The notes beneath the pieces are model-generated. The model was not told the origin of the DNA, ran no database searches, and saw nothing but the letters and a program-made list of their open reading frames with translations. This document shows positions 28,953 to 51,017 of a DNA stretch of 51,017 bases, in pieces. The translations under genes were made by a program, and so were the position numbers. Numbering within the stretch: the first letter of the stretch is position 1; each line of letters starts with the position of its first letter. This DNA comes from an uncultured Campylobacter sp. (GTDB taxonomy: Bacteria; Actinomycetota; Actinomycetes; Mycobacteriales; Mycobacteriaceae), in contig CALTYW010000001.1 of the NCBI GenBank assembly GCA_943913625.1, positions 1 to 51,017 on the forward strand, written 5' to 3'.

Positions 28953-29277
28953 TTGGAAAGGCGACCAGATCCTGCGCCGTCTCGACCAGGCCGTCGAATC
29001 CGCAGCGCAGGCAGCAGGGGAAGTCCTCGGCGACGAAGCCGTGCAGCGCACCCCCAAGGAGTCCGGCACGCTCCAAGGCTCGATGAAAGTCACCACGGAC
29101 GGCCAGGGCACCGCCGCCGTGTCCTACAACACTCCGTACGCCTGCCGCCAGCACGAGGAAATCGGGTGGCGGCACCCCGGTGGCGGGGAAGCCAAATACC
29201 TGGAAAACGCCATGTCCGCAGCCGCCGACGGCATGCAGCAGGCCATCGCCCAAGAAATCGGAAAGGTACTCAAGTGA
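28939..29277 (+). CDS. Neck/tail completion protein
   Basis: TPKESGTLQGS, YNTPYACRQHE, AKYLE. Confidence 0.75.
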   Translation: MAQLDWKGDQILRRLDQAVESAAQAAGEVLGDEAVQRTPKESGTLQGSMKVTTDGQGTAAVSYNTPYACRQHEEIGWRHPGGGEAKYLENAMSAAADGMQQAIAQEIGKVLK

Positions 29278-30834: not shown

Positions 30835-31184
30835 ATGGCCCGTACGGCCCCTACGACCCACGGCCCCGCGCCTACGGAGAAGACGACCCCGGTGGTGGCC
30901 CGTACGACCCGGAGACGGGCTTGCGCGACTGGTACGGCTACACCGGCCCGCTTGTCGAGCAAGACCCGGAGCCGGAGCCGGTACAGATCCCGTGGTCGCT
31001 GATCCTGGAGCACTGGGCCGACATCGAGTGCGACCTGCACGAGAAATTCAATATCGACGCCGAATCGGGCATTTTGCGTCAACGCACCTGGCGGTGGCTC
31101 GAGCTGCGAATCACCGACCTGACCCGCCAGCCGTCACGACTCAAACAGGTCTGTGACGCCTACGCCCTAGAGGTGAGCCAATAA
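30717..31184 (+). CDS. Tail assembly chaperone -1 frameshift extension (GT)
   Basis: Open -1 frame from the slippery site to the TMP start; WADIECDLHE..RTWRW. Confidence 0.75.
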   Translation, partial: GKRTGATGAGSDDGADRDSGRSPGNSTVTGEHAEEETLLDGPYGPYDPRPRAYGEDDPGGGPYDPETGLRDWYGYTGPLVEQDPEPEPVQIPWSLILEHWADIECDLHEKFNIDAESGILRQRTWRWLELRITDLTRQPSRLKQVCDAYALEVSQ

Positions 31185-34100
31185 TGTCGATGGATCTGGG
31201 TACACTCCACGCCAAAATCACAGTCGATGCCAACGGTGTGTCGTCCACGCTGGGCAGCGTCAAGCGCGACCTGTCCGATGTCAAGCGCGACATGGAGCGC
31301 GTCGAGCGCACCAAGATGAACGTCGCCCCCACCGGGGAAGACAAAATCAAGTCCGCGTCGAAGAGCGCGCAACAGCTCGGCCAGGACATGGACAAAGCCG
31401 GCGACGCCGCCGAAAACCTGCGCGTCTCCGAGCAGCCCGCGCAGGAGCTGGAGCGCGCCGCTGGCTCCGGGCGGGGCTTGTCCGATGTGCTCTCGGGGCT
31501 GGGGAACGTCGCTCCGCTGGTTGGCCTGGCGGCTGCTGGCGCGGGTGTGGCCGGGGCGTTCCAACAGGCGCTCGAGCTGGGTAACGAGTTTACGAACCAG
31601 ATCAACACGGTGCGTGCCGTGTCGGGGGCGACCGAGGAGCAGTTGGCGGCTGTGGGGCAGCGCGCCCGCGAACTCGGCAACGACATCACCCTGTCCAACA
31701 CCTCGGCGTCCGATGCAGCGCTGGCGATGGCGGAGCTGGCTAAGGGTGGTTTCGAGGTCGACCAGGCGATGCAGGCTGCTAAGGGCACGTTGCAGCTCGC
31801 CGCTGCCGCGCAGGTGGATGCGGGTACGGCTGCGACGATCCAGGCGCAGGCGCTCAACAGCTTCGGGTTGCAGGCGGACTACGCGGCTAAGGCTGCGGAC
31901 GTGCTCGCCAACGCCGCGAACGCCTCGACTGCGGAAATGACCGACATCGCAGCCGGTTTACAGCAATCCGGCGCAGTCGCCGCACAGTTCGGCCTGTCAC
32001 TGGAGGACACTTCCGCAGCGCTGGGCATGTTCGCCAACGCCGGTATCACCGGCTCTGACGCCGGTACGCTGCTGAAAACCGCGCTACTGTCCCTGACCGA
32101 TCAGGGCAAGCCCGCGCAGCAAGCGATGGAAGAGCTGGGGCTGACCGTCTACGACGCCCAGGGCAAGTTCGTCGGCATGCACTCCCTGATGGAGCAGCTC
32201 GGGGAAGCCGCATCCCGCATGAGCGACGAGGAATATCAGGCTGCCGCCGCGACCCTGTTCGGCTCGGACGCGATGCGTCTGGCGGGTATCGCTGGTGAGC
32301 ACGGCGCGTCGGGCTACGACCAGATGCGTGAAGCCGTGGAGCGCGAGGGGGCGGCTGCTGATGTGGCTGCTGCGAAGACTCGTGGTCTGCCGGGTGCTAT
32401 CGCAGCTGTCGAGAACAGCGCCGAAGAACTCGCCTTGACGCTGTACGACCAGTTCTCCCCCGCACTAGAGAGCGGGCTGCGCCACCTCGCAGGCGGCATG
32501 GACGCCCTCGGCCCCGCAATCGCCGGCGTCGGCAACGCCATGCGCGCCGTCCCCGGCCCAGTATTCATTGCCATGCTCGCCGGCGTCGCCACCCGCATGC
32601 TCGACCTCAACACGAAGATGACGAGCGGGGTCGGGTCGATCAACCGCTACGCCAACACGGTGCGCACCCAGCTCACCTCCGCGTGGGCCACGGCCCGTAC
32701 CTCCGGCCAGCAGGCATCCGCCCAGCTTCGTGAGCGTCGCGCACAGCTCGCGCAGACCGCAGCAGCCGAACGCGCATTCGCCAACACCACCAAGAGCGCC
32801 CACATGTCCGCTATCGCGACGTCGCGGGCAATGGAGCTGGAGTGGAAGACCCGCATGCTCGGCATGCAGACCGCAGCAACCACGTTCGCGGGCACCACTC
32901 GCGGTGTGATGGTGGCCGGTTTCAACGGCATCAAGACTGCCGCGTCTGGGCTTATGGGGCTGCTCGGTGGGCCGTGGGGGTTGGCGCTTACCGCTGCTGC
33001 CGGTGTGGTCAGCGTGCTCGCCAGCAAGCACATGGAGGCTAAGGCTGCGGAGGAAGAGCACCAGGCGCAGCAAGCCCAACTCAAAGACAGCCTGGATCAG
33101 ACCACCGGCGCGATCACCGCCCAGACCAACGAACTACAAAAGAAGCGCGCTGAGGAAAACGATTGGATCGACACCGCAAATCAGCTCGGCGTGTCCTCCG
33201 ATACCGTTGTGGCCGCTATGAACGGCAACGCAGGTGCCATGCGTGAGGTCGAAAACGCCACCAAAGCTTCTACCCGCGCTGCTATCGAGGGTTCCGACAC
33301 CTGGAAGAAGAAAGCTGATCTGTACGCCGAATCCGGCGTGTCGCTCGACCTGCTGACCGACGCCGTCCACGGCAACGCAGACGCACAAAAGCAGCTGTCC
33401 GACATCATGGGCGGCGAGGGCGAACTCAACTTCTGGTCGAAGAAAGTCGAGGACGCCACCGCAAAGGCCCGTGACCTCAAAGACGGCGTCAACGGCGCAG
33501 CAGGCGAAGTAGAAGAGCTACAGGGCAAACTCCGCGCCGACCAGATCGCTGGCATCGATAAAGTGATTGGACAGACCCGCGACGCGTTCGCGCAGCTGGG
33601 TGATTCGATCACCGGCATTCCCGACGAGAAGACCATCGAGGTCTCGTCGATGGCCCCTGACGTCAAAAAGCAGTTCGAAGACCTGAACGCCACTGTCGAG
33701 CGCGGCGCGGATGGCCAGGTTCGAGTTACTTTTGACGATGGGCTCAACGTCATGGCCATGCTCGATCAAATCGGCGCGAGGGCTAAGGCGGGAATCGACG
33801 GTCGCGTCGATCTCTCCGACAACACCCCCGAGGTGCAAGAGCGACTCATTCAGCTCGGCATAGCGACCCGTGACCCAATCACTGGGCAACTCATGATGAC
33901 CGACAACTTGGCTGAAGTCATGGGCAAGCAAGAAGAACTCGGCGCCATCACTCGCGACCCCATCACTCAAGAGTTCACCGTTGTCGACAACGTCGAGCTG
34001 GTGAAGTCGGCGCTGCGTGACCTCAAGCAGGACATTTACGACATTCCACCTGGTGAAGTCCGCATCATGGACGACACCCCGAAGAACCGTGCCAACGTGC

Positions 34101-36661
34101 GCCAGCTCGGTATCGAGGTCGCGGAGCTACCCGGTGGTCACATCGCGATCACCGATACCTCACCGGAGAACCTGCTCAATCTCGCGACTCTCGGAACGCA
34201 AACGCAGAACCTCCCTCCGGGGCACGTCGGCATCACCGACACCACGCCAGAGAACCTTGCGCACCTCGCTGATCTGGGCGTCAAGACAACGACGCTGCCG
34301 AACGGCAAGGTGGTGGTCTCCGACAACGCCGATACGACCGCCAACCACATCAAGACCGTGCTGGCACCGCAGGCGATCAACACGTTCTCCGACCACACGG
34401 TCAACATCGTCCGCCGCATCACCGACATCTTCACCCGTGGCGACGCCAACGGCGGCGTGTACGACGGGGCGCAGCGCGCCCAAGCGTTCGCGGACGGCGG
34501 CACGACTCGAGCACTCGATCAGGCCATGTCCGGCCCCCGCAAGGAACCGGCGCACGTCGCCACGATCACCCCGCCCGGCACCTACCGCGTCCACGGCGAA
34601 TCCGAGACCGGGGGCGAAGCCTACATCCCCCTCGCAGCGTCGAAGCGTGACCGCTCCACCCGCATCCTGAACCACGTCGCCACCAGCTTTGGCTACAACC
34701 TCGTCACCAACGACGGGCGCGCTGTCGCACTTGCGGACGGCGCGGTGCTGCCGGGTGCTGCCGTGGAGAAGAAGCTGAAGTACATGGACAACACCCCCTA
34801 CATTTTCGGCGGGTGGACGCGTGCCGGCGTCGACTGCTCGGGCGCTGTCTCCCTCGGCGTGAACACAGCTTTGGGTCTGGACGAGTGGGACTCGCGTACC
34901 GCCACCGCTGGTGAGGGCGCGTGGCTGACGCAGAAAAACTTCCAGCGCGGCAAAGGCCAATCCGGCGACATCCGCGTCGCGTTCTACAATGGCGGGCCAG
35001 GTGGCGGCCACACGGCCATGCAGCTCGACAACGGCACGTTCATCGAGTCCGGCGGCAACACCGGGGGTGGCTTCACGATCAACCGTGGCGCAGGCCCACT
35101 CGAGGGCAGGGGCTTCACCGACTGGTACTTCCTGCCCGGTGCCCGCCCACTCAAGCCGGGGGAGGGGCTGGACTACTTCGACGCGCTCGACGGCGCGGCC
35201 GGCACCCGCACTGCCCGCGCCGCAAGGGGAAGCGACCTCGACGGCGTGAGCACCACCGAGCAGAAGCGCGAACTCAACGGCGGCGCAGGCCCGTTGATTC
35301 GTGACGGCTCCGTCCTGGAGCTGGTTGCCGCGCTCTACTCGTACCAGACTGGCCACCCGATGGACGACGACATTGTCTCCTGGGGCCAGGCCATCGGCCT
35401 GTACTCCGAGCTGTCCGAGAAGTCGGAGAAGAAAGCCGCCAAGGAAGCTGACAAGCTCACCAAGTCCATCGAGAAGAAGTCTGAGCAGCTCGACAAAAAG
35501 CGCGAAGCCCTCCCCACCGCCGAGGAAGACCTGCGCATTGCGAAGATGAAGCGCGACGAGGTCTACGGCAAAAAGGACAAGAACGGCAAGACCACCGCCA
35601 CCGAATCGCAAAAGGCCGCTGCCGATCAGCGCGTGGTCAAAGCCGAGCAAAAGGTCGAGAAGCTCAAGGAAGAAATCGCCAAGCTCGAAAAAGAAATGGC
35701 CGAGCAGGAAGCCGCACTCGCGGAGCTTGATTCCGACGTGCTGACCCCGGTCAACGAGATGGAAAAGGCCTCCGGCACCTCGGGCAACAAGTACGCCGAC
35801 GAAATCATCAAGGAGGGCCGCAAACGCGGTATCACTGACCGTGGCATCAAGATCGCGCTCGCCACTGCGCTGGTGGAGTCGAACATGAAGATGTACGCGA
35901 ACCCGGCGGATCCGCCGTCGATGAAAATGCCGCATGACGCGGTCGGCTCCGACCACGATTCCGTGGGCCTGTTCCAGCAGCGGGCGAACGGCGCGTGGGG
36001 CACCACCGCCGACCGCATGGATCCAGCCAAGAGCGCGGGCATGTTCTACGACCAGCTGGTCAAGGCGGACTACAACACCGGCGACGCCGGCGCGCACGCC
36101 CAACGTGTGCAGCGCTCGGCGTTTCCTGGACGCTACGCGCAGCGCATGGACGAAGCCCAAGGCTTCCTCGACAAGTACAACTCGAGCGCTAAGGCGAAGA
36201 TCACCCCGATGGCTGACGGCGGCATCCTCGGGAATGCGCGCCAGGCGTCGATCAACGAGGGGTCGGCGGTGCTGTGGGCGGAAGCCGGGCCGGAAGCCTA
36301 CATCCCCCTGTCTTCCGATAAGCGGGCACGCTCCATCGAGATTTGGAAAGAGACCGGCAAACGCCTGGGCGTCGACGTCATGAGCATGTTCAACCTGATC
36401 GGCTCCGGCCTGCCCGGACTGGTGGAGGGCAAGCTCGACTTCGACACCGGGGGCAGCACCTCGATCCACCGCCTGGGCATCAACGAGGAAGCGGCGTCGT
36501 ACCGGGCGAAGCGTCACGCCCAGCGCGAGGTCACCAACGCCGTGGGCGCAGTCTTCAACGGCCCGGTGCAAATCAACGACCCGAAGCAGTACCTCCAGCG
36601 CCAGATGGACACCGCCCAGAAGCAGCTAGGTAATGCCATGAGGAGCGTGATGCTGAAATGA
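31184..36661 (+). CDS. Tape measure protein with NlpC/P60-like and lytic transglycosylase-like domains
   Basis: 1825 aa, Ala-rich; PYIFGG..GVDCSG..GHTA; ALVESN..SVGLFQQ. Confidence 0.93.
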   Translation: MSMDLGTLHAKITVDANGVSSTLGSVKRDLSDVKRDMERVERTKMNVAPTGEDKIKSASKSAQQLGQDMDKAGDAAENLRVSEQPAQELERAAGSGRGLSDVLSGLGNVAPLVGLAAAGAGVAGAFQQALELGNEFTNQINTVRAVSGATEEQLAAVGQRARELGNDITLSNTSASDAALAMAELAKGGFEVDQAMQAAKGTLQLAAAAQVDAGTAATIQAQALNSFGLQADYAAKAADVLANAANASTAEMTDIAAGLQQSGAVAAQFGLSLEDTSAALGMFANAGITGSDAGTLLKTALLSLTDQGKPAQQAMEELGLTVYDAQGKFVGMHSLMEQLGEAASRMSDEEYQAAAATLFGSDAMRLAGIAGEHGASGYDQMREAVEREGAAADVAAAKTRGLPGAIAAVENSAEELALTLYDQFSPALESGLRHLAGGMDALGPAIAGVGNAMRAVPGPVFIAMLAGVATRMLDLNTKMTSGVGSINRYANTVRTQLTSAWATARTSGQQASAQLRERRAQLAQTAAAERAFANTTKSAHMSAIATSRAMELEWKTRMLGMQTAATTFAGTTRGVMVAGFNGIKTAASGLMGLLGGPWGLALTAAAGVVSVLASKHMEAKAAEEEHQAQQAQLKDSLDQTTGAITAQTNELQKKRAEENDWIDTANQLGVSSDTVVAAMNGNAGAMREVENATKASTRAAIEGSDTWKKKADLYAESGVSLDLLTDAVHGNADAQKQLSDIMGGEGELNFWSKKVEDATAKARDLKDGVNGAAGEVEELQGKLRADQIAGIDKVIGQTRDAFAQLGDSITGIPDEKTIEVSSMAPDVKKQFEDLNATVERGADGQVRVTFDDGLNVMAMLDQIGARAKAGIDGRVDLSDNTPEVQERLIQLGIATRDPITGQLMMTDNLAEVMGKQEELGAITRDPITQEFTVVDNVELVKSALRDLKQDIYDIPPGEVRIMDDTPKNRANVRQLGIEVAELPGGHIAITDTSPENLLNLATLGTQTQNLPPGHVGITDTTPENLAHLADLGVKTTTLPNGKVVVSDNADTTANHIKTVLAPQAINTFSDHTVNIVRRITDIFTRGDANGGVYDGAQRAQAFADGGTTRALDQAMSGPRKEPAHVATITPPGTYRVHGESETGGEAYIPLAASKRDRSTRILNHVATSFGYNLVTNDGRAVALADGAVLPGAAVEKKLKYMDNTPYIFGGWTRAGVDCSGAVSLGVNTALGLDEWDSRTATAGEGAWLTQKNFQRGKGQSGDIRVAFYNGGPGGGHTAMQLDNGTFIESGGNTGGGFTINRGAGPLEGRGFTDWYFLPGARPLKPGEGLDYFDALDGAAGTRTARAARGSDLDGVSTTEQKRELNGGAGPLIRDGSVLELVAALYSYQTGHPMDDDIVSWGQAIGLYSELSEKSEKKAAKEADKLTKSIEKKSEQLDKKREALPTAEEDLRIAKMKRDEVYGKKDKNGKTTATESQKAAADQRVVKAEQKVEKLKEEIAKLEKEMAEQEAALAELDSDVLTPVNEMEKASGTSGNKYADEIIKEGRKRGITDRGIKIALATALVESNMKMYANPADPPSMKMPHDAVGSDHDSVGLFQQRANGAWGTTADRMDPAKSAGMFYDQLVKADYNTGDAGAHAQRVQRSAFPGRYAQRMDEAQGFLDKYNSSAKAKITPMADGGILGNARQASINEGSAVLWAEAGPEAYIPLSSDKRARSIEIWKETGKRLGVDVMSMFNLIGSGLPGLVEGKLDFDTGGSTSIHRLGINEEAASYRAKRHAQREVTNAVGAVFNGPVQINDPKQYLQRQMDTAQKQLGNAMRSVMLK

Positions 36662-39361: not shown

Positions 39362-40885
39362 ATGACCCAGATACTCGACTGGTCGCAGCGGTTCAGCTTC
39401 GGCAGCGCCCGCCCGACCAGCGCGATCAGCCTTATCTGCATCCACGTCACGGTCAACCGGCCTGGCACGCCTGCGGAGAACGTGGCGAACTACCAAATCC
39501 GCTCGCAGTCCGGTTCGTATCACGAGCTGGTTGACACCCGCCCGGTGGTGCTGATCGAGAACACGGACGACTGGCGCACCTGGTCGTCCGGCAACCGTGG
39601 CAACGATATCGGCTGGCACTTGTCGTTCGTCGTGATGGGCAACGAGACCCGCGAGCAGTGGCTTGCCCAGGACGCGATGCTGCGAGCCGGTGCGAAACGC
39701 TGCGCGATCCGTGCGAAGAAGTACGGCATCCCGGTCGTGAAGCTCACGGCTGCGGATCTGCGCGCCGGGAAGCGCGGCTTCTGTGGCCACCTGGAGACCG
39801 GCCAAGCCTGGGGCGGCACAGACCACGTAGACCCCGGCAAGCACTTCCCCTGGGACGTGTTTCTGCGCTACGTCCGCGAATACATGGGCCAAGCACCCGC
39901 CCCGGCTGCGAAGCCAGCGGCCCCGGCACCCAAGGTCACTAAGGCGGGCGAGCGCATGCTTGACTACCCGCGAGACCAGGTCAAGCAGGACACCGGCTAC
40001 AACTGCGGCCCCGCGAGTGTGCAGACCGCGATCCGCGCTGCCGGTGGGCCGCTTGTGTCGGAATCGACGCTGGCGCGGGAGCTGCGCACCTCCACCAGGG
40101 GCACGGACTACATCGGGCAGTTCCCCAAGGTGCTCGACAAGTACATCCCAGGCGCGAAGTACAAACACACCGACATCCCGAACGACCCGCCCACGAACTC
40201 GCAGAAAGAAAAATTCTGGGCTGATCTGACCGGCTCCATCAACGCCGGCCACGCCGTCGTGGTGAACATCTGCGCCCCGCCGTCGAACTACCCGCGTGCG
40301 GTGTGGCCGTCCACCATTTCCCCGAACTACAGGGGCGGCACCGTGTGGCACTACATCCTCGCCACCGGATACGCCGGCGAGGGCAAGAACCGCCGCGTCT
40401 GGATCGCAGATAGCGGTTTCGACCCGTACGGCTACTGGATCAGCTTTGACCAGCTCGCCACTCTCGTCCCACCCAAGGGCTACGCGTACAGCGTCGCCCA
40501 ACCAACCACAACCTCTAAGGAGACCCCAGTGTCCTCAACCCGCGTCATCCTCGGCGGCGAATCCGCAGCCGCCCTCCACGAAGCCAAGATCAGCTCCAAG
40601 AATGTCGAGGACGCCACTCGCCGCCTGGAGCGCACCGTCACCCTGATCGCAGACCAGCTGCTCGGCTGGCCGAAGAACGACAAGGGCGAATACCTCATTT
40701 CCGGCTGGGACTTCGATTCGATTCTCGCGTCCGCGAAGAAGAAGCTCGACGCCGGCAAGGGCGTGACCCTCGTCGAACAGATCGCGCTACTGCAAGACCA
40801 GAACAAGCACATCATCGAAGCGGTCAAGCAGTCCAACGACTCGGTCACGCACCTGATCGACGCTTACGAAGCAGGAGTGAAGTAG
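39362..40885 (+). CDS. Endolysin: amidase, C39-like peptidase and C-terminal domain
   Basis: ICIHVT, SYH, CGH..HVDPG; QDTGYNCGPAS..WHY..ADSG. Confidence 0.9.
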   Translation: MTQILDWSQRFSFGSARPTSAISLICIHVTVNRPGTPAENVANYQIRSQSGSYHELVDTRPVVLIENTDDWRTWSSGNRGNDIGWHLSFVVMGNETREQWLAQDAMLRAGAKRCAIRAKKYGIPVVKLTAADLRAGKRGFCGHLETGQAWGGTDHVDPGKHFPWDVFLRYVREYMGQAPAPAAKPAAPAPKVTKAGERMLDYPRDQVKQDTGYNCGPASVQTAIRAAGGPLVSESTLARELRTSTRGTDYIGQFPKVLDKYIPGAKYKHTDIPNDPPTNSQKEKFWADLTGSINAGHAVVVNICAPPSNYPRAVWPSTISPNYRGGTVWHYILATGYAGEGKNRRVWIADSGFDPYGYWISFDQLATLVPPKGYAYSVAQPTTTSKETPVSSTRVILGGESAAALHEAKISSKNVEDATRRLERTVTLIADQLLGWPKNDKGEYLISGWDFDSILASAKKKLDAGKGVTLVEQIALLQDQNKHIIEAVKQSNDSVTHLIDAYEAGVK

Positions 40886-42203: not shown

Positions 42204-42212
42204 TGCTATATT
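42204..42212 (+). promoter_or_regulatory. Extended -10 promoter for the CRISPR-like RNA
   Basis: TGcTATATT a few nt upstream of repeat 1. Confidence 0.55.
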
Positions 42213-42216
42213 CAAG

Positions 42217-42342
42217 TTGTTCCCCGCGTGAGCGGGGGTGAGCCATTGTTCTTGTGCGATGTGCTCCTATTCCCTGCGTGAGCAGGGTTGAGCCGTTGTT
42301 TCTGTGCGGTGGCTCTTCTTCCCCGCGTAAGCGGGGTTTTTT
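42217..42342 (+). CRISPR. Mini-array of type I-E-like repeats with two short spacers and no cas genes
   Basis: TTGTTCCCCGCGTGAGCGGGGGTGAGCCA (42217-42245), CTATTCCCTGCGTGAGCAGGGTTGAGCCG (42267-42295), TTCTTCCCCGCGTAAGCGGGG+T6 (42316-42342); spacers of 21 and 20 nt. Confidence 0.8.
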
Positions 42343-42751
42343 ATTTCACCCACCGCTGCACCGTGGAGCGGGTGCGCCCCGTGGCCTGCGCGATCCGGTA
42401 GAGCGGAACCCCCGAATCGACCGCTGCTTTAGCCATTGCGTCGCGCCGTGCTTTGAGGTCAGCGAGCTGCTCTTCCACGGTAGTGATCTCCTCGTCCAGG
42501 GCGGTGATCTGCTGGAGCTGGGAGATGCCGCCGTTGTAGTGTTTCGTGGCCACCTCCCAAAAATCGACATCCTCGCGCTCGGCCATGCCCGACTGGTTGG
42601 CGCTGTCCCACCCCTCATCGTCGGCGGGCACCGCCACCCACTCGAGCATCTCCTGCGCAATCGCCAGAGTGTCGTAGTCGCCGGCATCCTCGCCCAGGGC
42701 GGGAATCACCACAGACTCCTCGTAGCTGTATGCGCTGCTGTAGAGCTGCAT
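42341..42751 (-). CDS. Acidic N-terminal domain fused to a C-terminal HTH (Aca-like candidate)
   Basis: GVPLYRIAQATGRTRSTVQRW; TAATG-coupled to the upstream gene. Confidence 0.75.
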   Translation of the reverse strand: MQLYSSAYSYEESVVIPALGEDAGDYDTLAIAQEMLEWVAVPADDEGWDSANQSGMAEREDVDFWEVATKHYNGGISQLQQITALDEEITTVEEQLADLKARRDAMAKAAVDSGVPLYRIAQATGRTRSTVQRWVK

Positions 42752-43176
42752 TATCGGGTGGCCTCCAGCTCTGCTGCGCGGCGTGCGGCGATCTTCGCGG
42801 CCTGCTCGCGGGCCTTGTCCTCCAGGCCGGCCAGGGCCACGTCGAAGACGCTGCCGTAGTCCTCGCCGAGGGTCTTGATGATGTCCACCATGCGACCGTC
42901 GATGCCGTAGTGCTCGCGCACCGCAGCTTTGGCTTCCTCTTCGATGGTGTAGAACGCGCCGGTGATGGCCTGGGCGAGGGTGCGGTCGATGGTTTCGATG
43001 GTCTGCATCCGGGCGCTGGCTTTGGCTCCGTGGCGGCCAGATTCACCGCGCCAGGTTTTGGCTTCGTCGCGGTCGGTGCGGGTCATGGAGATGTCGCTGG
43101 AGATGCTGGCGCGCATTGCGTCGTTGACGTAGGCGATGGTGAGGGTCTCGATGGTGGCGGTGTCGGTGATGAACAT
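42751..43176 (-). CDS. Helical hypothetical protein (anti-defence candidate)
   Basis: GAAAGGA SD before MFITDT; first gene after its own promoter. Confidence 0.7.
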   Translation of the reverse strand: MFITDTATIETLTIAYVNDAMRASISSDISMTRTDRDEAKTWRGESGRHGAKASARMQTIETIDRTLAQAITGAFYTIEEEAKAAVREHYGIDGRMVDIIKTLGEDYGSVFDVALAGLEDKAREQAAKIAARRAAELEATR

Positions 43177-43216
43177 TTGCTCGTCCTTTCGGGTGGTGTT
43201 CTTTGCTTGTGTCACC

Positions 43217-43251
43217 AGTATGACGCACTGCGTCGTACAACGCAATGCGTC
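43217..43251 (-). promoter_or_regulatory. Promoter overlapped by two palindromic operators
   Basis: TTGCGT-17-CATACT on the minus strand; GACGCAcTGCGTC (43222-43234) and ACGCAaTGCGT (43240-43250). Confidence 0.7.
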
Positions 43252-43341: not shown

Positions 43342-44418
43342 ATGGCCGACATCGTGCCCACCTACAAAGACCTCGAAACAAAACTCGTCCTACGCTGGGT
43401 CGATACCGAAGACGTCATGGCCACGCAGCGCGCCACCATCGAGGTCACACCCGAAGCCGCATATTTGGAGCTGCCGCGTGGCCTGCGCGGAGAGAAAGGT
43501 GAACCCGGCGACCCCGGCCCCGGCTTCTGGTTCCGTGACCTGATTACCGATAAGCGCCAGCTGCCGCAGAACCTGCGCGACGTGGATCGAGGCAGCGCGT
43601 TCCCCGACACGAAGTCCAAGAGCCTGTGGGTGTGGGACGGGCGTGACTACTTCGAAATCCCGAATTTCATTGGGCTTCGTGGCGAGCCGGGTAAGACGCC
43701 GCGTGTGCAGATCGGCTCTGTGGTGCCGGGTGGCGACGCCAAAGTGTCGGTCAACCAGGCCGCCAGCACGGAGGACACGTTCGTCCTGGACTTCGTGCTG
43801 CCCCAAGGCCCGGTCGGCCCGCAGGGTAAGCAGGGCGAGACGGGCGAGGCGTCGAACGTGTCTAGCTCGCCGGATGTGGACGTGTCGCGTCCGCCGAAGC
43901 CGGGTGAAGCGCTGACGTGGAACGGCTCGAAGTGGGCACCGCGCAACATGCTGTCCCCGGTGGGGCCGTGGATGATGGGTCCGAACGACTTCAATTCATT
44001 CGAGCAGAAGCTGATCGGTTCCAGCGACAAAAAGAACCATCTGATCGGCTCGATCACGGTGCCCGGCTTGCCGTTCGACTGGCGGCCCGTGATTTTGGGC
44101 GGCCACTTGCAGTGGTGGTCTGACCTTGGCATCCAGCTCAACGTGGACGTGCGTGTCGGCAACGCCCAAAAGGGCGACATCGTCGGCCACGGCGTCGGGG
44201 TGCGCAACGCCCGCCAGCTCCAGTACGTCAGCCTGCACCCGTGGTCGACCGGCAGCGTCTCCCCAGGCTCCACCTACGGCGTGGTCAAGGCCAACACGGC
44301 CACCACGATCTACGTCGTCCTGGAAAAGGTGTACGGGTCTGCGGGTGCGTGGGAGTTCACCCGCCAGAACGCCGGCCTGACGTTCATGGCCATGCCGGTG
44401 AACACCCAGTACGCGTAG
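43342..44418 (+). CDS. Minor tail protein with collagen-like repeats
   Basis: AGGAG SD; GEKGEPGDPG and GPVGPQGKQGETG. Confidence 0.8.
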   Translation: MADIVPTYKDLETKLVLRWVDTEDVMATQRATIEVTPEAAYLELPRGLRGEKGEPGDPGPGFWFRDLITDKRQLPQNLRDVDRGSAFPDTKSKSLWVWDGRDYFEIPNFIGLRGEPGKTPRVQIGSVVPGGDAKVSVNQAASTEDTFVLDFVLPQGPVGPQGKQGETGEASNVSSSPDVDVSRPPKPGEALTWNGSKWAPRNMLSPVGPWMMGPNDFNSFEQKLIGSSDKKNHLIGSITVPGLPFDWRPVILGGHLQWWSDLGIQLNVDVRVGNAQKGDIVGHGVGVRNARQLQYVSLHPWSTGSVSPGSTYGVVKANTATTIYVVLEKVYGSAGAWEFTRQNAGLTFMAMPVNTQYA

Positions 44419-44425
44419 GGGGTGC

Positions 44426-46603
44426 GTGGTGGCTGATCGTGATTTCCGCTCGTCGGAGGAACTCGCCGGCGTCACTGTCTCCAGTACGCAGGCATTGCCT
44501 GAGCCGCAGGACGGGGAGGTCAACCCGTACAACTCGTTGACGCGTGCGGATACGTTCGGGATTCGTCCTGACCTGTATTTCGAGCTGGCCCAGGCGATGC
44601 CGCAGGCACCGACGGTGGACATGCTGATTCGTCGTGCCCGTGAAGCGCTTGCCCAGTCCGAGGACAGCCTGAAGCAGTCGGATCAGGCCCGTCGGGACAG
44701 CGCTAAGGCGCTCGAAGATTCGGACGCGGCGCTGAAAGACGCTGCGGTCGCGAGGAAGCAGGCCAGGGCGAGCCTGGATCAGTCGACGGCGGCGATTGCT
44801 GAATCGAATTCGGCTGTGGCGCAGGCACGGCAGGCCGTGACGACGTCGAACGAGTACCTCCAGGTCTCCAAGGACGCTTTGGCGGACGCGGGGCGAGCAC
44901 GAGCGCGGGCCGATTCCGCGCTCGCGGAGGGTGCGAAGCAGCGCACCGTGGTTGAGCGGTCGCTGGCTGAATCTGCACAGGCGTTGGAGCGCGCCGGGGC
45001 AGCGGTGCGCAAGTCGGACGATTCCATCTCGCTGGCGCGCTCGGCGCTGGTCGACGCTGGGGCAGCTCGAGCTAAGGCTGAATCGGCGTTGTCAGAGAGC
45101 GCGGCGCAGCGGGTGCTGGTGGAGCAGTCGCTGGGCGAATCTGCTCGCGCTTTGGCGCGGGCGGGGGATTCACTGTCGCGGTCGGATCGGGCGTTGTCGG
45201 TGGCGGGTACTGCCCTGGCGGACGCGAGTACGGCGCGTACTGATGCTGCGTCGGCGTTGTCGAATTCGGGCGCTGCCCTGGATAAGTCGGATTCGTCGGT
45301 GGCGACTGCGAACGCGGCGAACAGTAGGGCGTCGTCGGCTGATCTGACGTCGGAAGCTGGGCGCAAGGTGGCGCTGGAATCGCTGGCTAAGGCGTCGCAG
45401 GCGAACACAAACGCCATCGCGGCTACGAATACCGCGCTGCGGGCCACGAATGATTCTGTGGAAGCCCTGCGTCGGGCGAATGCGGCGAACAGCCGCGCTA
45501 TAGAAGCGAACTCGGCGGCGATTTCTGCCACAAATCAGGCGGTGGCGTCGCACGGGGTGGCGATCCAGGCGACGAATGATGCTGTGTCGGCGCTGTCGGC
45601 GTCGTTGGCTGCGAACTCGCGGGCGATTGCTGCTGTGTCGGAAGCGTCGTCGGCGAACAGCAGGGCTATCTCCGCGAACAGCACCGCAATCTCGGCCACA
45701 AATACTGCCGTGTCCGCGAACAGTACCGCCATTGGTGCCACGAATAAGGCTGTGGCGGCTGTGACCGCGTCGTCGGCGGCGAACGCGAACGCTATTTCGG
45801 CGTTGTCGGATGCGTCGGCGGCGAACAGTAGGGCGATCAGGGCCACGAATTCTGCTGTTGCGGCGACGAATACCGCCGTGTCCGCGAACTCGAACGCTAT
45901 CTCCGCCACGAATAAGGCGCTGACCGCGACGAATAGCGCGGTGTCTGCCCTGGAGGTGGCGAACGGGGCGAACAGTCGAGCCATCGCCGCCACCAACCGG
46001 GCCGTGGCCGCTGCGAACGCCGCGTCAGCTGCGAACACGGACGCGATCCGCGCCACCAACCGGGCTACTTACGCGCTTACCGAAGCTATCGGCTTGGTGC
46101 ACCTGAAAAACTACGGTGCCTGGGGCATGAGCAGTGGTTACTCGCTGAACAAGGGCACAACCTACATTGATTTTGACTACCTCAAGGGGGCGTCGGGTTG
46201 TGGGTCGAACGCGATTTCCGCTGGCGGGAAGATCATCAACGGGATCCGCTTCGACGACGCTGGCCAGTGGGAAGTGAACCTACGCATGTACATCCCGTCA
46301 GCGCCAAGCAGTCTCTCGATGGAGAATGTGAAGGTGCATCTCGCGCACTGCCGAGGTAGCGAGTTTGTCGACCGGGCCACGTTCGCGACGAACGAGATGT
46401 ATGGGCACTCGATTGGTTTGCACGCGATGTTCCGAGTGCAGCCAGGTGATTACGCCTACGTGTTCGTGGATTCGAGCGCGAATCGTGGTTCGACGTTGCT
46501 GACACGCACGTCCAGGTGGGGGGACGATTACAACGAGTTGGCGGTGCGCCAGGTGTCTCGCGTTGGACAACCTGATATTCCGACAGACTACCTGCGACTC
46601 TAG
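44426..46603 (+). CDS. Tail fibre-like protein with long Ala/Ser/Asn coiled-coil stalk and beta-rich tip
   Basis: Repeating ANSxAIxATNxAV pattern. Confidence 0.75.
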   Translation: MVADRDFRSSEELAGVTVSSTQALPEPQDGEVNPYNSLTRADTFGIRPDLYFELAQAMPQAPTVDMLIRRAREALAQSEDSLKQSDQARRDSAKALEDSDAALKDAAVARKQARASLDQSTAAIAESNSAVAQARQAVTTSNEYLQVSKDALADAGRARARADSALAEGAKQRTVVERSLAESAQALERAGAAVRKSDDSISLARSALVDAGAARAKAESALSESAAQRVLVEQSLGESARALARAGDSLSRSDRALSVAGTALADASTARTDAASALSNSGAALDKSDSSVATANAANSRASSADLTSEAGRKVALESLAKASQANTNAIAATNTALRATNDSVEALRRANAANSRAIEANSAAISATNQAVASHGVAIQATNDAVSALSASLAANSRAIAAVSEASSANSRAISANSTAISATNTAVSANSTAIGATNKAVAAVTASSAANANAISALSDASAANSRAIRATNSAVAATNTAVSANSNAISATNKALTATNSAVSALEVANGANSRAIAATNRAVAAANAASAANTDAIRATNRATYALTEAIGLVHLKNYGAWGMSSGYSLNKGTTYIDFDYLKGASGCGSNAISAGGKIINGIRFDDAGQWEVNLRMYIPSAPSSLSMENVKVHLAHCRGSEFVDRATFATNEMYGHSIGLHAMFRVQPGDYAYVFVDSSANRGSTLLTRTSRWGDDYNELAVRQVSRVGQPDIPTDYLRL

Positions 46604-46615
46604 GAGGTAGCGCGC

Positions 46616-48451
46616 ATGCAGATGCAGTTCACGACGGTGAAGCGGGCGGTCAAGGCCGTGCACGTAGACGGCTACGACAATGACCGCGCCCCCGAGGTCG
46701 AACAGGTGCAAGGCTCGGTCACGTTTTACCCGATGATGGGTGAGGGTGACAGTGTCCAGGTGCAGACCGTGGAGGGGCCAGTCACGGTGGTGCTCACCCC
46801 GATTACGGTGCGGATTGCGGACGGCATGGTGATGCACCGTGGCGGTATCGGGGTGCAGCTTTTCGCCGGTGGCAAGGGGTCAGAGCCGTCGCTGATTCGG
46901 TGGCGGGCGCGGTTCACGAACCTCCAATCTGACGGCGTGCCAATCCAGCTGCGGGACGTCGTTTTCGACGCGGTGCCCGGTGGGGAAGTCGACCTCACCA
47001 CCGCAGCACCCCTCGCGAACGCGCCGGAGCCTATCGTGCGCGGCCCGCAAGGTGTGTCGATGGATTCGCTGACGGTGGAGGGCGGCGACCTCGTTGTGTG
47101 GGGCCGCTCCGAATCCGGCAAGCAGGTGCTGTCGCGGATCAAGATGTCGCAGATCACCGAACCTGCGGCACAAGCAGCAGCGGACGACACACTCGCGAAG
47201 CTCAAGAAGACGCTGGACGCCAAGGCGGACAAGGACGAGACCGCGCAGGCACTGGGAACCAAGGCCAATCAGGAAGCCGTGACCACCGCGCTGGCGCTTA
47301 AGGCCGACAAGACCGCGCTAACAACTGGGTTGTCGGGCAAGGCGGACACGTCGCACAAGCACACCTCGGCGGACGTAACCGACGCGAAGAGCACGCCGAC
47401 GGCGGGCGTGCTCGTCAAGTACGACACGGGCGGATTGTTCACCGTCGGCACCCCCAAGGTCGACGCGCACCCGACGACGAAGAAGTACGTCGAAGAAGCA
47501 CTGACGAAGAAAGCTGACAAACAGCACTCTCACCCGATCAGCGACGTCACCGGGCTACAGGCCGCGCTCGACGTCAAAGCGGCGAACGCCCACAAGCACG
47601 GACAGGGCGACATCATCGGCCTGGACACGACCTTGGCGGGCAAGGCCGATAAAACGCACAGCCACGGCTGGGATGGGATCACCGGCAAACCCACCACGTT
47701 CACCCCTGCTGCGCACAGCCACACCATCGGCAACGTGACAGGGCTACAGTCCGCCCTTGACGACAAACTCCCCAAGACGCACTTCAAGGTCGATTCCACA
47801 CTGTACGACCCGCAGCGCGTCGTAATCGACGGTTTTACAGCGTCCGATGCGCGTACTGAGGTCGCCGGGATTCTTAAGACTGCGGGGTTGACAAGCATCG
47901 GTAAAACCGGTGTGTGGTCTATCGCGGTTGGTGTTGACGCGGTTGCTGAGCATGCGCTTGGGGTGGCTGTCGGCGCGTGGTCGGTGGCTCTTGGTGAGCA
48001 GGTGGTCGCGCTTGGCTCTCTAGCGGTCGCTAGTGCCCAGTGTGCGGTCTCTATCGGCCCGTCAGCAATCGCAATGGGTACCTGGTCGCTTGCGCTGGGC
48101 GGGGCAGCCAAGGTCGGGAAAGGCGCGACGAATTCCGTCGCTCTCGGCCCCAATGCCGTCGTGAACACCCCCAACACGATTCAACTTGGGGCATCCGGTG
48201 CCACCGTCAACGTCTCCGGCGATTTGACGATCCCTGATCCGAAGCAAGGCCGTAGTGCTGCGACGAAGCATTATGTCGATACTCGCAAAGTCCAGATCAG
48301 CCAGGTCAATGGCTTGGCGGCGGAGCTGGGGGCGCGCCCGAACGCGTGGATCATCGAAACCGCTGCGGAGCTGAAGGCGACGGAGGCGAAGGCGCGGCCC
48401 GGCGACATTATTTTTGTGGACGAAACCGGCGAGAAATGGAAGGTGAGCTAA
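46616..48451 (+). CDS. Tail fibre with H-x-H repeats and YadA-head-like repeats
   Basis: HSHPISDVTGLQAALD repeats; SIAVG/SVALG/AVSIG repeats; AATKHYVD. Confidence 0.8.
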   Translation: MQMQFTTVKRAVKAVHVDGYDNDRAPEVEQVQGSVTFYPMMGEGDSVQVQTVEGPVTVVLTPITVRIADGMVMHRGGIGVQLFAGGKGSEPSLIRWRARFTNLQSDGVPIQLRDVVFDAVPGGEVDLTTAAPLANAPEPIVRGPQGVSMDSLTVEGGDLVVWGRSESGKQVLSRIKMSQITEPAAQAAADDTLAKLKKTLDAKADKDETAQALGTKANQEAVTTALALKADKTALTTGLSGKADTSHKHTSADVTDAKSTPTAGVLVKYDTGGLFTVGTPKVDAHPTTKKYVEEALTKKADKQHSHPISDVTGLQAALDVKAANAHKHGQGDIIGLDTTLAGKADKTHSHGWDGITGKPTTFTPAAHSHTIGNVTGLQSALDDKLPKTHFKVDSTLYDPQRVVIDGFTASDARTEVAGILKTAGLTSIGKTGVWSIAVGVDAVAEHALGVAVGAWSVALGEQVVALGSLAVASAQCAVSIGPSAIAMGTWSLALGGAAKVGKGATNSVALGPNAVVNTPNTIQLGASGATVNVSGDLTIPDPKQGRSAATKHYVDTRKVQISQVNGLAAELGARPNAWIIETAAELKATEAKARPGDIIFVDETGEKWKVS

Positions 48452-50963: not shown

Positions 50964-51017
50964 TGGAGCCGGCGACGAGAATCGAACTCGCACTCTCAGC
51001 TTGGGAAGCTGATGTTC
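50964..51017 (-). tRNA. tRNA-Gly(CCC) 3' portion and right att core (5' end beyond the window)
   Basis: Reverse complement ...TCAGC-TTCCCAA-GCTGA..GCGAGTTCGATTCTCGTCGCCGGCTCCA. Confidence 0.93.

What the first reader, a model, noticed from the sequence alone, without database searches (positions are those of the whole stretch)
42341..43251. Acr/Aca-like autoregulated operon converging on the mini-array
Seen: a minus-strand two-gene operon inserted between lysis and tail genes. Its TTGCGT-17-CATACT promoter is overlapped by two ACGCAnTGCGT palindromes. The second protein has an acidic N-terminus fused to an HTH, and its stop abuts the repeat-3 terminator. Established: acr operons are repressed by HTH Aca proteins binding promoter inverted repeats. 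Inference: a combined protein and RNA anti-CRISPR island with two new Acr candidates.
Basis: partly seen in the sequence, partly recalled or inferred. Interest (0 to 1): 0.75.

Follow-up and report, generated by a model that had tools for sequence, protein, structure and literature searches.

The report
Autoregulated anti-CRISPR-like phage gene cassette
A Corynebacterium prophage carries a small self-repressed two-gene cassette, built like an anti-CRISPR operon, right next to an RNA decoy that copies the host's own CRISPR regulator, so its two unknown proteins are good candidates for new CRISPR inhibitors.

Summary
orfA (42751-43176) and orfB (42341-42751) form a minus-strand operon between the lysis and tail-fibre genes. 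Its TTGCGT-17-CATACT promoter carries the only two ACGCANTGCGT sites in the window.

orfB is a fusion of a 76-aa acidic domain (pI 4.05) and a coiled-coil HTH. In related prophages the HTH is kept and the first gene is swapped (four unrelated families). The promoter palindromes change together with the HTH recognition helix, which supports Aca-like autorepression.

The abutting mini-array is a type I-E "Cracr" array. Its first pseudo-spacer matches a CreR-like unit in the host's cas3 leader at 18 of 22 positions. It also pairs with the cas3 promoter next to an AAC PAM.

The acidic domain has 468 representative relatives. It is fused once to an AcrIC5 domain and is co-transcribed once with a repeat unit.

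Three lysogens carrying sister cassettes hold perfect self-targeting spacers. One of them (G103) was checked and has an intact cas operon.

Against: neither protein matches a known Acr or Aca, this host has no self-targeting spacer (0 of 42), and no inhibition has been shown.

Verdict: a new member of the acr-aca kind; the Acr role is likely but unproven.

The parts
43217..43250 (-). Promoter with two operators. -35 TTGCGT is at 43240-43245 and -10 CATACT at 43217-43222, with a 17-nt spacer. Operator 1 (ACGCATTGCGT, 43240-43250) overlaps the -35. Operator 2 (ACGCAGTGCGT, 43223-43233) abuts the -10.
   Evidence: Read. These are the only 2 matches in the window against 0.09 expected. The same two sites, 17 bp apart and directly before the -10, occur in L029, L026 and L014.
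43177..43216 (-). Conserved 5'UTR scaffold (GGTGACACAAGCAAAGAACACCACC) and ribosome-binding site AAGGA.
   Evidence: Aligned by eye across the window, L029, L026, L014, L013, L012 and L032. No function was tested.
42751..43176 (-). orfA: 141 aa, pI 5.1, all-helical bundle. It is the variable cargo gene and a candidate inhibitor.
   Evidence: ORF. Only 10 clusters in 5.8 billion proteins, all 139-141 aa. AF2 pLDDT 94.9. No Pfam, PHROG, PADLOC, NCBIfam or PDB match. It is absent from every related cassette fetched.
43111..43121 (.). One-mismatch copy of the operator (GCGCATTGCGT) inside orfA. It may be a third site or chance.
   Evidence: 5 one-mismatch matches in the window against 3.1 expected. 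Three of the five lie within 140 bp here.
42524..42751 (-). orfB residues 1-76: a small acidic alpha/beta domain ('N-dom'), the candidate effector.
   Evidence: pI 4.05. Modelled as a separate domain. It occurs as a stand-alone 60-90 aa protein in other genomes. The profile finds 468 representatives at E<=1e-3. Fusions to AcrIC5, PhdYeFM and HTH domains are seen. 9 of 51 members match phrog_27679.
42344..42523 (-). orfB residues 77-136: a long helix (76-112) plus a C-terminal helix-turn-helix, the presumed operator-binding autorepressor.
   Evidence: Pfam HTH_23 at E 6.8e-6. AF2 helices 76-112, 117-124 and 128-135. DeoR DNA-binding domain at Z 5.6, rmsd 1.1 over 43 residues. The recognition helix co-varies with the operator.
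42217..42346 (+). Neighbouring type I-E crRNA-like (Cracr) mini-array. It runs psiR1 42217-42244, psiS1 42245-42266, psiR2 42267-42294, psiS2 42295-42315, then psiR3 hairpin plus T-run 42316-42346. It converges on orfB.
   Evidence: Repeats match the host array repeat with 0-2 mismatches. Pseudo-spacers are 22 and 21 nt. psiS1 matches the host CreR-like pseudo-spacer at 18/22 and pairs with the cas3 promoter at positions 1-5, 7-11 and 13-16 next to AAC. The terminator is called.
42204..42212 (+). Possible extended -10 (TGCTATATT) for the mini-array.
   Evidence: Read by eye. It was not called by the scanner. Inference only.

Best explanation
This is an anti-CRISPR-type accessory operon of a temperate Corynebacterium siphophage.

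**How it is driven and controlled.** A sigma-A-type promoter drives orfA and the translationally coupled orfB. The C-terminal coiled-coil HTH of orfB binds the two ACGCANTGCGT operators that cover the -35 and abut the -10. This shuts the operon down after an initial burst, as Aca proteins do.

**What the family looks like.** The operon belongs to a family of mix-and-match cassettes in Corynebacterium prophages. Each has one promoter/5'UTR scaffold, exchangeable acidic cargo genes, the coiled-coil HTH, and usually a type I-E crRNA-like mini-array.

**What the array does here.** It mimics the host's own CreR-like regulator RNA. It should load host Cascade and hold it on the cas3 promoter.

**What the proteins probably do.** The cargo is orfB's own acidic N-terminal domain and orfA. 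These are the likely protein inhibitors of the type I-E system, or of another defence, that act alongside the RNA.

**Shown versus inferred.** Shown by sequence: the anatomy, cargo exchange, operator/HTH co-variation, the array's mimicry and its target, and self-targeting in related lysogens. Inferred: DNA binding, repression, and any inhibition by orfA or orfB.
For: 1. **Anatomy and non-chance operators**.
2. **Conserved HTH, variable partner.** orfB has 41 clusters and orfA only 10.
   - L029 keeps orfB (75% identity), the promoter and the array, but has an unrelated 124-aa first gene.
   - L026 and L014 have a 152/155-aa gene.
   - L013 and L012 have a 243/262-aa gene.
3. **Operator co-variation.**
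   - Four loci with helix GRT(R/P)STVQRWVK all carry ACGnnTTGCrT-6-ACGCnGyGCGT directly before the -10.
   - Two loci with helix GRQQSAVAQWKRMK carry GTAGTACTAC / TACTAC-N7-GTAGTA instead.
   - The relaxed motif is not enriched elsewhere in the phage (5 found against 2.9 expected).
4. **Link of the HTH to mini-arrays.** The four best C-domain hits in 321 genus genomes all have an I-E-like mini-array within about 1 kb. The eight weaker hits have none.
5. **The array is a Cracr.**
   - The host leader holds psiR-psiS-psiR with psiS CTTGTTTTTGTGCGATTGGCTC.
   - The phage psiS1 matches it at 18/22; L029 psiS1 aligns to it at 20 of 21 bases.
   - The seed TTGTT.TTGTG occurs 4 times in the 2.27-Mb genome. 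Three of the four are phage psiS1, host psiS and a site 78-99 nt upstream of cas3 with an AAC PAM.
   - Published I-E Cracr arrays have the same three-repeat anatomy with 24/21-nt pseudo-spacers and often sit beside acr genes.
6. **The N-domain.**
   - It is fused to Pfam AcrIC5 (E 4.9e-21) in P0068/L030, to a PhdYeFM DNA-binding domain in P0099, and to an HTH in P0129.
   - In G125 it has its own TTGACA-17-TATAAT promoter and is followed on the same strand by a repeat-spacer-repeat/terminator unit. This resembles the published acrIC5-racrIC1 bicistron.
7. **Self-targeting in lysogens with sister cassettes.**
   - G103: 23 of 103 spacers hit its own prophage region at <=3 mismatches, 13 of them perfectly. 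Its cas3-cas1 operon is intact, and no mini-array was found in the 69 kb scanned.
   - G017: 16 of 96 spacers, 3 perfect.
   - G081: 9 of 75 spacers, 3 perfect.
   - The upstream PAM-like bases are consistent.
8. **Host distribution.** Hosts of HTH-plus-array cassettes have I-E arrays in 4 of 4 cases, against 100 of 321 in the genus.
Against: - **No homology.** orfA, the N-domain and the HTH match no known Acr or Aca in Pfam, PHROGs, NCBIfam or PDB sequences. Fold searches give only generic helical-bundle or HTH matches.
- **No self-targeting here.** 0 of 42 spacers in this host match the prophage. The array is cut by the contig end and the genome is 77% complete. G253 also has 0 of 47.
- **No enrichment of the stand-alone N-domain in CRISPR-bearing hosts.** Only 2 of 6 such genomes have I-E arrays, which is about the genus baseline.
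- **An awkward partner in G125.** There the N-domain is co-transcribed with a full-length (about 33-nt) spacer unit. That fits poorly with a general Cascade blocker.
- **Attribution is indirect.** The self-targeting shows that those prophages (or hosts) disable interference, not which gene does it.
- **Kinship.** The genus genomes are related, so the counts are not independent.
- **No expression data.** No RNA data could be obtained.
Confidence: 0.6

Rival explanations
1. The HTH protein regulates the mini-array or a phage developmental switch. On this reading the cargo genes (orfA and the N-domain) are ordinary morons unrelated to CRISPR, such as anti-restriction or another host-takeover function. 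The cassette is still autoregulated, but it is not an acr locus.
For: - The tightest association found is between the coiled-coil HTH and mini-arrays, in any orientation (same strand, divergent or convergent).
- The stand-alone N-domain is not enriched in I-E hosts (2 of 6).
- The cargo proteins are acidic (pI 4.05-5.1), as DNA-mimic anti-restriction proteins are (recalled, not tested).
- The Atlas structure search lists an ArdA cluster only at TM 0.40.
Against: - The operators sit on the cassette's own promoter, not in front of the array.
- In the window the array has no ACGCANTGCGT site of its own.
- The N-domain is fused to an AcrIC5 domain and is co-transcribed with a repeat unit.
- G103 tolerates 13 perfect self-targets with no mini-array in the 69 kb scanned.
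Confidence: 0.2
2. It is a toxin-antitoxin or prophage-encoded exclusion/defence module. orfA would be the toxin or effector. orfB would be an antitoxin whose acidic N-domain neutralises it and whose HTH autorepresses the operon, in a HigBA/MqsRA-like gene order.
For: - The gene order is effector first, then an HTH protein, with a palindrome on the promoter.
- One N-domain relative carries a PhdYeFM antitoxin N-terminal domain (P0099).
- The site is a typical moron position in a prophage.
Against: - There is no fixed pairing. The same N-domain/HTH protein sits behind orfA in the window and behind an unrelated 124-aa gene in L029.
- The 124/152-aa gene family pairs with either the N-domain or a different N-terminal domain.
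- Most of the listed N-domain relatives are stand-alone 60-90-aa proteins.
- No toxin, antitoxin or defence family matches in Pfam, NCBIfam or PADLOC.
Confidence: 0.12
3. The ORFs and palindromes are chance features of a high-GC intergenic stretch.
For: High-GC DNA gives many long spurious ORFs. For example, a 562-aa plus-strand ORF overlaps the region.
Against: - Both proteins have homologues at 44-99% identity with no frame breaks.
- The models are confident (pLDDT 94.9 and 88.7).
- GC3 of orfB is 0.82.
- 0 of 100 shuffles reached two operator sites.
Confidence: 0.02

Closest known systems
acr-aca operons of Pseudomonas and Pectobacterium phages, in which Aca1/Aca2 HTH repressors bind inverted repeats in the acr promoter.
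   Same: - Small cargo gene(s) are followed by an HTH gene in one operon.
- Inverted repeats overlap the promoter.
- The HTH is conserved while the cargo is exchanged.
- The operon sits in a prophage accessory slot.
   Different: - There is no sequence relation to any Aca or Acr found here.
- The HTH is a coiled-coil type with the recognition helix at the extreme C-terminus.
- The regulator is itself fused to a candidate effector domain.
- The host is an actinobacterium with a type I-E system.
AcrIF24, an Acr with an HTH that represses its own promoter and is genetically linked to type I-F Cracr RNAs. Sources: PMC9001735 (abstract seen in the listing) and bioRxiv 10.1101/2024.10.29.618823 (sections 9-11 and passages).
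   Same: - One protein combines an effector part with an Aca-like HTH.
- It lies beside a short-spacer crRNA-like array.
- The published model of Acr/Cracr synergy by spacer length would fit the 21-22-nt pseudo-spacers here.
   Different: - The sequences are unrelated.
- This is type I-E, not I-F.
- Here the array converges on the gene.
- No binding to Cascade has been shown.
The acrIC5-racrIC1 bicistron of a Bifidobacterium pseudocatenulatum prophage (PMC10651486; passages read).
   Same: - A small acr gene is followed within a few nucleotides by a repeat-like RNA on one transcript. The G125 relative (L033) has exactly this layout with the N-domain gene.
- An N-domain relative is fused to an AcrIC5 domain.
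   Different: - In the window the RNA element is on the opposite strand.
- The N-domain itself is not AcrIC5.
- The published AcrIC5 homologue begins differently from the L030 fusion protein (primer in the supplement).
Viral type I-E Cracr arrays (bioRxiv 10.1101/2024.10.29.618823; sections 7 and 8 read). This entry concerns the neighbouring mini-array.
   Same: - Three repeat-like units with two short pseudo-spacers (24/21 nt published; 22/21 nt here).
- Similarity to a host CreR-like RNA.
- Discontinuous pairing to a cas promoter.
   Different: - The predicted target is the cas3 promoter, not casA.
- The host is Corynebacterium.
- The preprint's tables could not be opened, so I cannot say whether this array is already listed there.
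Type II toxin-antitoxin operons with HTH antitoxins in second position (HigBA, MqsRA).
   Same: The gene order and the promoter palindrome.
   Different: - There is no conserved pairing of the two genes.
- There is no toxin family match.

Membership tests
acr-aca operon (functional class) | An HTH regulator gene lies in the same operon, downstream of small cargo gene(s). | tested here: met
   orfA and orfB overlap by 1 nt. orfB matches HTH_23 at 26.2 bits against a cut-off of 24.6.
acr-aca operon (functional class) | Inverted repeats overlap the operon's promoter and track the specificity of the regulator. | tested here: met
   Two sites are found against 0.09 expected. They are conserved in 4 loci with the same recognition helix and differ in 2 loci with another helix. 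Binding itself was not tested.
acr-aca operon (functional class) | The regulator is conserved while the upstream genes vary. | tested here: met
   Four unrelated first-gene families were found in seven cassettes. orfB has 41 clusters and orfA has 10.
acr-aca operon (functional class) | The cargo inhibits a CRISPR-Cas system. | not testable with these tools
   This needs an interference assay.
acr-aca operon (functional class) | The lysogen tolerates self-targeting spacers. | tested here: inconclusive
   G000 has 0 of 42. Among relatives with sister cassettes, G103 has 23 of 103 (13 perfect), G017 has 16 of 96, G081 has 9 of 75 and G253 has 0 of 47.
Known Aca families / known Acr families (by sequence) | Significant similarity to a described Aca or Acr. 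| tested here: inconclusive
   orfA, orfB and the N-domain profile give no match in Pfam, PHROGs, NCBIfam or PDB sequences. No dedicated Acr/Aca library was available.
Pfam HTH_23 (PF13384) | Score at or above the gathering cut-off. | tested here: met
   26.2 bits against 24.6, residues 101-136.
Pfam DUF6003 (PF19466) | Score at or above the gathering cut-off. | tested here: not met
   24.5 bits against 35.4, C-terminal half only. 6 of 41 homologue clusters carry a precomputed PF19466 hit.
Viral type I-E Cracr array (the neighbour) | Repeat-like units of the host's subtype with short pseudo-spacers. | tested here: met
   0-2 mismatches to the host repeat core. Pseudo-spacers are 22 and 21 nt.
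Viral type I-E Cracr array (the neighbour) | The pseudo-spacer resembles a host CreR/CreA and pairs PAM-proximally (>=9 bp) with a cas promoter. | tested here: met
   18/22 identity to the host leader pseudo-spacer. It pairs at positions 1-5, 7-11 and 13-16 next to AAC, 78-99 nt upstream of cas3. The seed occurs only 4 times in the genome.
Viral type I-E Cracr array (the neighbour) | Cas6e-dependent processing and repression of cas transcription. | not testable with these tools
   This needs small-RNA sequencing and RT-qPCR.
Type II toxin-antitoxin pair | Cognate, co-inherited pairing of the two genes. | tested here: not met
   The same orfB type is paired with unrelated first genes, and the same first-gene family is paired with different N-terminal domains.
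Type II toxin-antitoxin pair | Membership of a known toxin or antitoxin family. | tested here: inconclusive
   orfA and orfB have no match in Pfam, NCBIfam or PADLOC. One distant N-domain relative carries a PhdYeFM domain.

The most novel reading that the evidence does not exclude
orfB's 76-aa acidic N-terminal domain founds a widespread, undescribed family of anti-CRISPR or anti-defence effectors, with at least 468 clusters at 50% identity. The domain is modular: it stands alone or is bolted onto different DNA-binding autoregulators (coiled-coil HTH, XRE-like HTH, PhdYeFM) and once onto AcrIC5. In this phage it would work with the short-spacer Cracr array as AcrIF24 does in type I-F. The protein would disable Cascade loaded with normal 32-nt crRNAs. 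It would spare the smaller complexes loaded with the 21-22-nt viral pseudo-spacers, which sit on the cas3 promoter.
Probability: 0.27. Interest if true: 0.85.

Novelty: new member of a known kind. Interest (0 to 1): 0.68.

Why it matters
I found no anti-CRISPR protein described for Corynebacterium or its type I-E systems. One search listed 15 of 18 papers and none addressed this. The Cracr preprint's main text does not mention the genus, and its tables could not be read.

This locus offers several things:
- **A regulator to fish with.** The coiled-coil HTH and its promoter scaffold act as a bait that already pulls out at least seven cassettes with four or more unknown cargo families.
- **A candidate effector domain** with hundreds of relatives.
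- **Natural test beds.** The checked lysogen, G103, has an intact cas operon and tolerates up to 13 perfect self-targeting spacers.

It would also extend the newly described pairing of protein and crRNA-like RNA inhibitors from type I-F proteobacteria to type I-E actinobacteria. It identifies a host CreR-like autoregulator of cas3 in this genus. Corynebacteria are industrial and skin organisms, so inhibitors and regulators of their native I-E system would be practical tools.

Tried and rejected
- **DNA and protein searches in phage collections.** blastn and tblastn of the region, orfA and orfB against 50,697 phage records gave no match. IMG/VR scans with orfB, the A1 and A2 profiles and a promoter/5'UTR pattern found no relative.
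- **Other contig scans.** The genome-contig scan with orfB gave one weak HTH-only hit in a Tannerellaceae MAG (L009), which I did not pursue. The metagenome scan gave only 3 loci.
- **Fold searches.**
  - orfA: best Foldseek E-value 0.67; best VIA Z 8.0 (ferritin-like bundles), which is noise level for helical proteins.
  - orfB: only the HTH part matched.
- **Atlas.** There was no feature hit for either protein. The structure rows for the N-domain were unnamed phage and actinobacterial clusters.
- **Complex prediction, orfA with orfB(1-76).** No answer, score 0.00. This is not evidence either way.
- **The look-up of sequencing runs.** None was listed and no RNA holder was listed.
- **The search of earlier findings.** Nothing to show.
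- **A rejected target for psiS1.** A 13/22 match lies in the cas1/cas2 overlap (C55 about 2939). I rejected it as chance because it is coding and has no promoter.
- **The HTH as a phage-wide repressor.** Rejected, because the relaxed operator is not enriched elsewhere.
- **The published AcrIC5 homologue.** I tested whether it is the L030 fusion protein. The cloning primer shows a different N-terminus.
Full report
**1. What is there**

The window is one whole contig (C1) of a 2.27-Mb, 215-contig, 77%-complete genome. One homologue is named as a Corynebacterium sp. protein.

The window is a complete temperate siphophage or prophage. It carries:
- integrase at 604-1821, then RecE/RecT, SSB, RusA, dUTPase, WhiB and ParB;
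- terminase, portal, capsid, tape measure 31184-36661 and minor tails;
- endolysin 39362-40885, holin, two membrane proteins, further minor-tail genes 43342-48451, and a tRNA fragment at the right end.

On the minus strand between the lysis genes and the later tail genes lie two ORFs:
- orfA, 141 aa, 43176->42754;
- orfB, 136 aa, 42751->42344; its start overlaps orfA's stop by one base (TAATG).

The -35 TTGCGT is at 43240-43245, the -10 CATACT is at 43217-43222, and the spacer is 17 nt. The two ACGCANTGCGT palindromes at 43240-43250 and 43223-43233 are the only ones in 51 kb (0.09 expected). A simple sigma-70 scan did not call this promoter. Its reality rests on conservation, described in section 4.

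The orfB stop is 4 nt from the hairpin of the third CRISPR-like repeat, which a T-run follows.

**2. The two proteins**

*orfA* has only 10 clusters among 5.8 billion proteins, all 139-141 aa and 45-100% identical.
- It folds confidently (pLDDT 94.9) into a helical bundle.
- The bundle has no informative structural neighbour: Foldseek E>=0.67 and VIA Z<=8.0.
- It has no family or PDB match.

*orfB* has 41 clusters at 57-99% identity. It is modelled (pLDDT 88.7) as three parts:
- an alpha/beta domain, residues 1-72;
- one long helix, 76-112;
- a terminal helix-turn-helix, 117-135.

The HTH reaches Pfam HTH_23. It superposes on the DeoR, KorB and ParB DNA-binding domains at Z about 5. Residues 1-76 have pI 4.05.

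**3. orfB is a fusion**

A profile of orfB was searched in 321 genus genomes. It found no full-length relative, only halves:
- the N-domain alone, as 72-91-aa proteins, in six genomes;
- the coiled-coil HTH alone, or behind other N-terminal domains, at twelve places.

A profile of the N-domain against 1.84 billion representatives found 468 proteins at E<=1e-3 and 114 at E<=1e-10. About two thirds of the 150 listed are stand-alone proteins of 60-100 aa.

I scanned 56 of these 150 with Pfam; 53 had no family. The three that did were:
- P0068, the protein of loci L030/L031, which adds a C-terminal AcrIC5 domain (E 4.9e-21);
- P0099, which adds an N-terminal PhdYeFM DNA-binding domain;
- P0129, which repeats orfB's architecture.

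By eye, P0054 has an XRE-like HTH in front of the N-domain. 9 of 51 members match the unnamed phrog_27679. The N-domain profile has no PDB sequence match.

**4. A family of cassettes with an Aca-like regulator**

Seven related cassettes were read.

| Locus (genome) | First gene(s) | HTH protein | Mini-array |
|---|---|---|---|
| Window | orfA | N-domain/HTH | convergent |
| L029 (metagenome) | unrelated 124 aa | N-domain/HTH (75% identical) | convergent |
| L026 (G017) | 152 aa | 148 aa, different N-terminal part | convergent |
| L014 (G017) | 155 aa | 148 aa, different N-terminal part | divergent |
| L013 (G081) | 243 aa | 66 aa, coiled-coil HTH only | four repeats, same strand, downstream |
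| L012 (G111) | 262 aa | HTH, then a truncated N-domain | upstream |
| L032 (G103) | N-domain | 130-aa HTH, then 303-aa and 92-aa genes | none |

L032 sits in the same slot, next to the homologous minor-tail gene. In L033 (G125) the N-domain gene has its own consensus promoter, and a 174-aa HTH protein lies upstream.

The cargo proteins are all acidic (pI 4.4-5.1) and unrelated to each other. The exception is the C-terminus shared by the 124-aa and 152/155-aa genes.

All cassettes share a promoter/5'UTR scaffold. The decisive point is co-variation:
- The four loci whose HTH recognition helix reads GRT(R/P)STVQRWVK all have two sites 17 bp apart. The second site abuts the -10 (CATACT, AATAAT, TATAAT or CATAAT). 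The loci are the window, L029, L026 and L014.
- The two loci with GRQQSAVAQWKRMK have GTAGTACTAC / TACTAC-N7-GTAGTA at the same place.

The relaxed operator is not enriched elsewhere in the phage (5 found against 2.9 expected). The regulator's target therefore appears to be local. This is the anatomy of an aca gene. Binding and repression are inferred, not shown.

**5. The neighbour is an RNA anti-CRISPR**

The host contig C55 carries a full type I-E operon (cas3, cse1, cas7, cas5, cas6e, cas1) and an array of 42 repeats.

Between cas3 and the array there is a host unit of the form psiR-psiS-psiR. The phage psiS1 (42245-42266) is identical to the host psiS at 18 of 22 positions. L029 psiS1 aligns to the host psiS at 20 of 21 bases.

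A site on the cas3-sense strand lies 78-99 nt upstream of the cas3 start and is preceded by AAC. It pairs as follows:
- with the host psiS at positions 1-5, 7-11, 13-15 and 17;
- with the phage psiS1 at positions 1-5, 7-11 and 13-16;
- the mismatches within those paired stretches fall at positions 6 and 12, which type I Cascade flips out.

The seed TTGTT.TTGTG occurs only four times in the whole genome, and three of the four are these elements. AA followed by C or G is also the motif upstream of protospacers in G017 and G081.

This matches the published description of viral type I-E 'Cracr arrays': three repeat-like units, pseudo-spacers of 24 and 21 nt, copies of host CreR, and pairing to a cas promoter (preprint sections 7-8). 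That preprint and the Racr paper both report that such RNAs cluster with acr genes. The examples include the HTH-bearing AcrIF24 and an acrIC5-racr bicistron. L033 reproduces the latter layout with the N-domain gene.

psiS2 pairs less well with this host's promoter, with mismatches at positions 7 and 14. It may be aimed at another strain.

**6. Association with CRISPR beyond this window**

- The four best HTH hits in the genus all have an I-E-like mini-array within about 1 kb. The eight weaker hits have none.
- Their pseudo-spacers are conserved between prophages of different species at 91-94%.
- The hosts of HTH-plus-array cassettes all have I-E arrays (4 of 4), against 100 of 321 genus genomes.
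- Self-targeting was found in three related lysogens:
  - G103 has an intact cas3-cas1 operon. 23 of 103 spacers hit its own prophage region at <=3 mismatches, 13 of them perfectly, and 17 of 23 have GA upstream. Several lie inside the cassette. No mini-array was found in the 69 kb scanned.
  - G017 has 16 of 96 spacers hitting (3 perfect).
  - G081 has 9 of 75 (3 perfect).
- Such lysogens can only survive if interference is off. This is the classical signpost for prophage-borne inhibitors.

**7. What speaks against**

- This host has no spacer against the prophage (0 of 42; the array is truncated), and G253 has none (0 of 47).
- The stand-alone N-domain occurs in I-E-bearing hosts at only the baseline rate (2 of 6).
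- In G125 the N-domain travels with a full-length spacer unit.
- No homology to any known Acr or Aca was found.
- Self-targeting does not say which prophage gene is responsible.
- The genomes compared are kin.
- Expression could not be examined.

**8. Verdict**

- That the operon is a self-regulated accessory cassette with an Aca-like HTH is well supported, at about 0.85.
- That it is an anti-CRISPR or anti-defence locus whose cargo (orfB's N-domain and orfA) inhibits the host's type I-E system or another defence is the best explanation, at about 0.6.
- The rivals are a regulator-plus-unrelated-moron reading (0.2) and a toxin-antitoxin or defence module (0.12).

In kind, this is a new member of the acr-aca class with new protein families. 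It is coupled to a recently described type of RNA inhibitor, in a bacterial group where neither has been described in the papers I could search.

Noticed in passing
G000 contig C55, about 11850-11925 (locus L035): The host carries its own CreR-like crRNA-like unit between cas3 and the CRISPR array. It reads degenerate repeat, 21-22-nt pseudo-spacer CTTGTTTTTGTGCGATTGGCTC, repeat. Its predicted target is 78-99 nt upstream of the cas3 start, next to AAC. This suggests Cascade-mediated autorepression of cas3 in this Corynebacterium.
   Followed up: partly
G103 (L036 array; L032, L038, L039 prophage), G017 (L043; L044-L047), G081 (L048; L049-L051): There is heavy self-targeting. 23 of 103, 16 of 96 and 9 of 75 array spacers match the genome's own prophage region, with 13, 3 and 3 perfect matches. 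The upstream bases are consistent: GA+C in G103, and AA+C/G in G017 and G081. The cas operon of G103 looks intact.
   Followed up: partly
L013, L014, L026, L033 mini-arrays: Prophage mini-arrays in different Corynebacterium species share near-identical 32-34-nt 'spacers' at 91-94% identity. All begin GTTG/GTTT and end GCTC, and some have internal palindromes. They behave like conserved functional RNAs rather than acquired spacers. Their targets were not sought.
   Followed up: no
L030 4840-5320 (and L031): A 125-aa fusion of the N-domain with an AcrIC5 domain lies in a 52%-GC mobile element that also carries recombinase, sigma-factor and nuclease genes. Its promoter region holds the inverted repeat ATAGCAC-N6-GTGCTAT. 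A hairpin, CGGCAG-N7-CTGCCG followed by ATTAAGAT, begins about 17 nt after the stop. This may be another acr plus repeat-like RNA unit.
   Followed up: no
window 24617-25300 (-) and 28449-29111 (-): Two further minus-strand genes are inserted in the plus-strand structural module. One is an Ant-like anti-repressor (phrog_63, E 5e-38) between the head genes. The other is a 220-aa protein with no family match, between the capsid and tail genes.
   Followed up: no
window 50967-51017 (-) and 604-1821 (+): A 3' tRNA fragment is cut by the contig end and lies opposite the integrase at the other end. If the contig is circularly joined, they would be neighbours, as in an attP-int arrangement. No terminal overlap of 15-199 nt was found. 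A complete tRNA also lies at 17852-17935.
   Followed up: partly
G000 C55 spacer 15 against C2:38628-38660: One host spacer matches another large contig of the same assembly at 29 of 33 positions. C2 may be a second mobile element targeted imperfectly.
   Followed up: no
L032 5322-5386 and 7027-7086: The promoter/5'UTR scaffold of the cassette occurs twice in the G103 prophage, before the N-domain gene and before a 92-aa gene. Three host spacers (7, 8 and 99) match this repeated scaffold.
   Followed up: no
window 31184-36661: The tape-measure protein carries endolysin-like segments. Residues about 1485-1670 match lysis PHROGs (for example phrog_700, E 1.6e-30).
   Followed up: no
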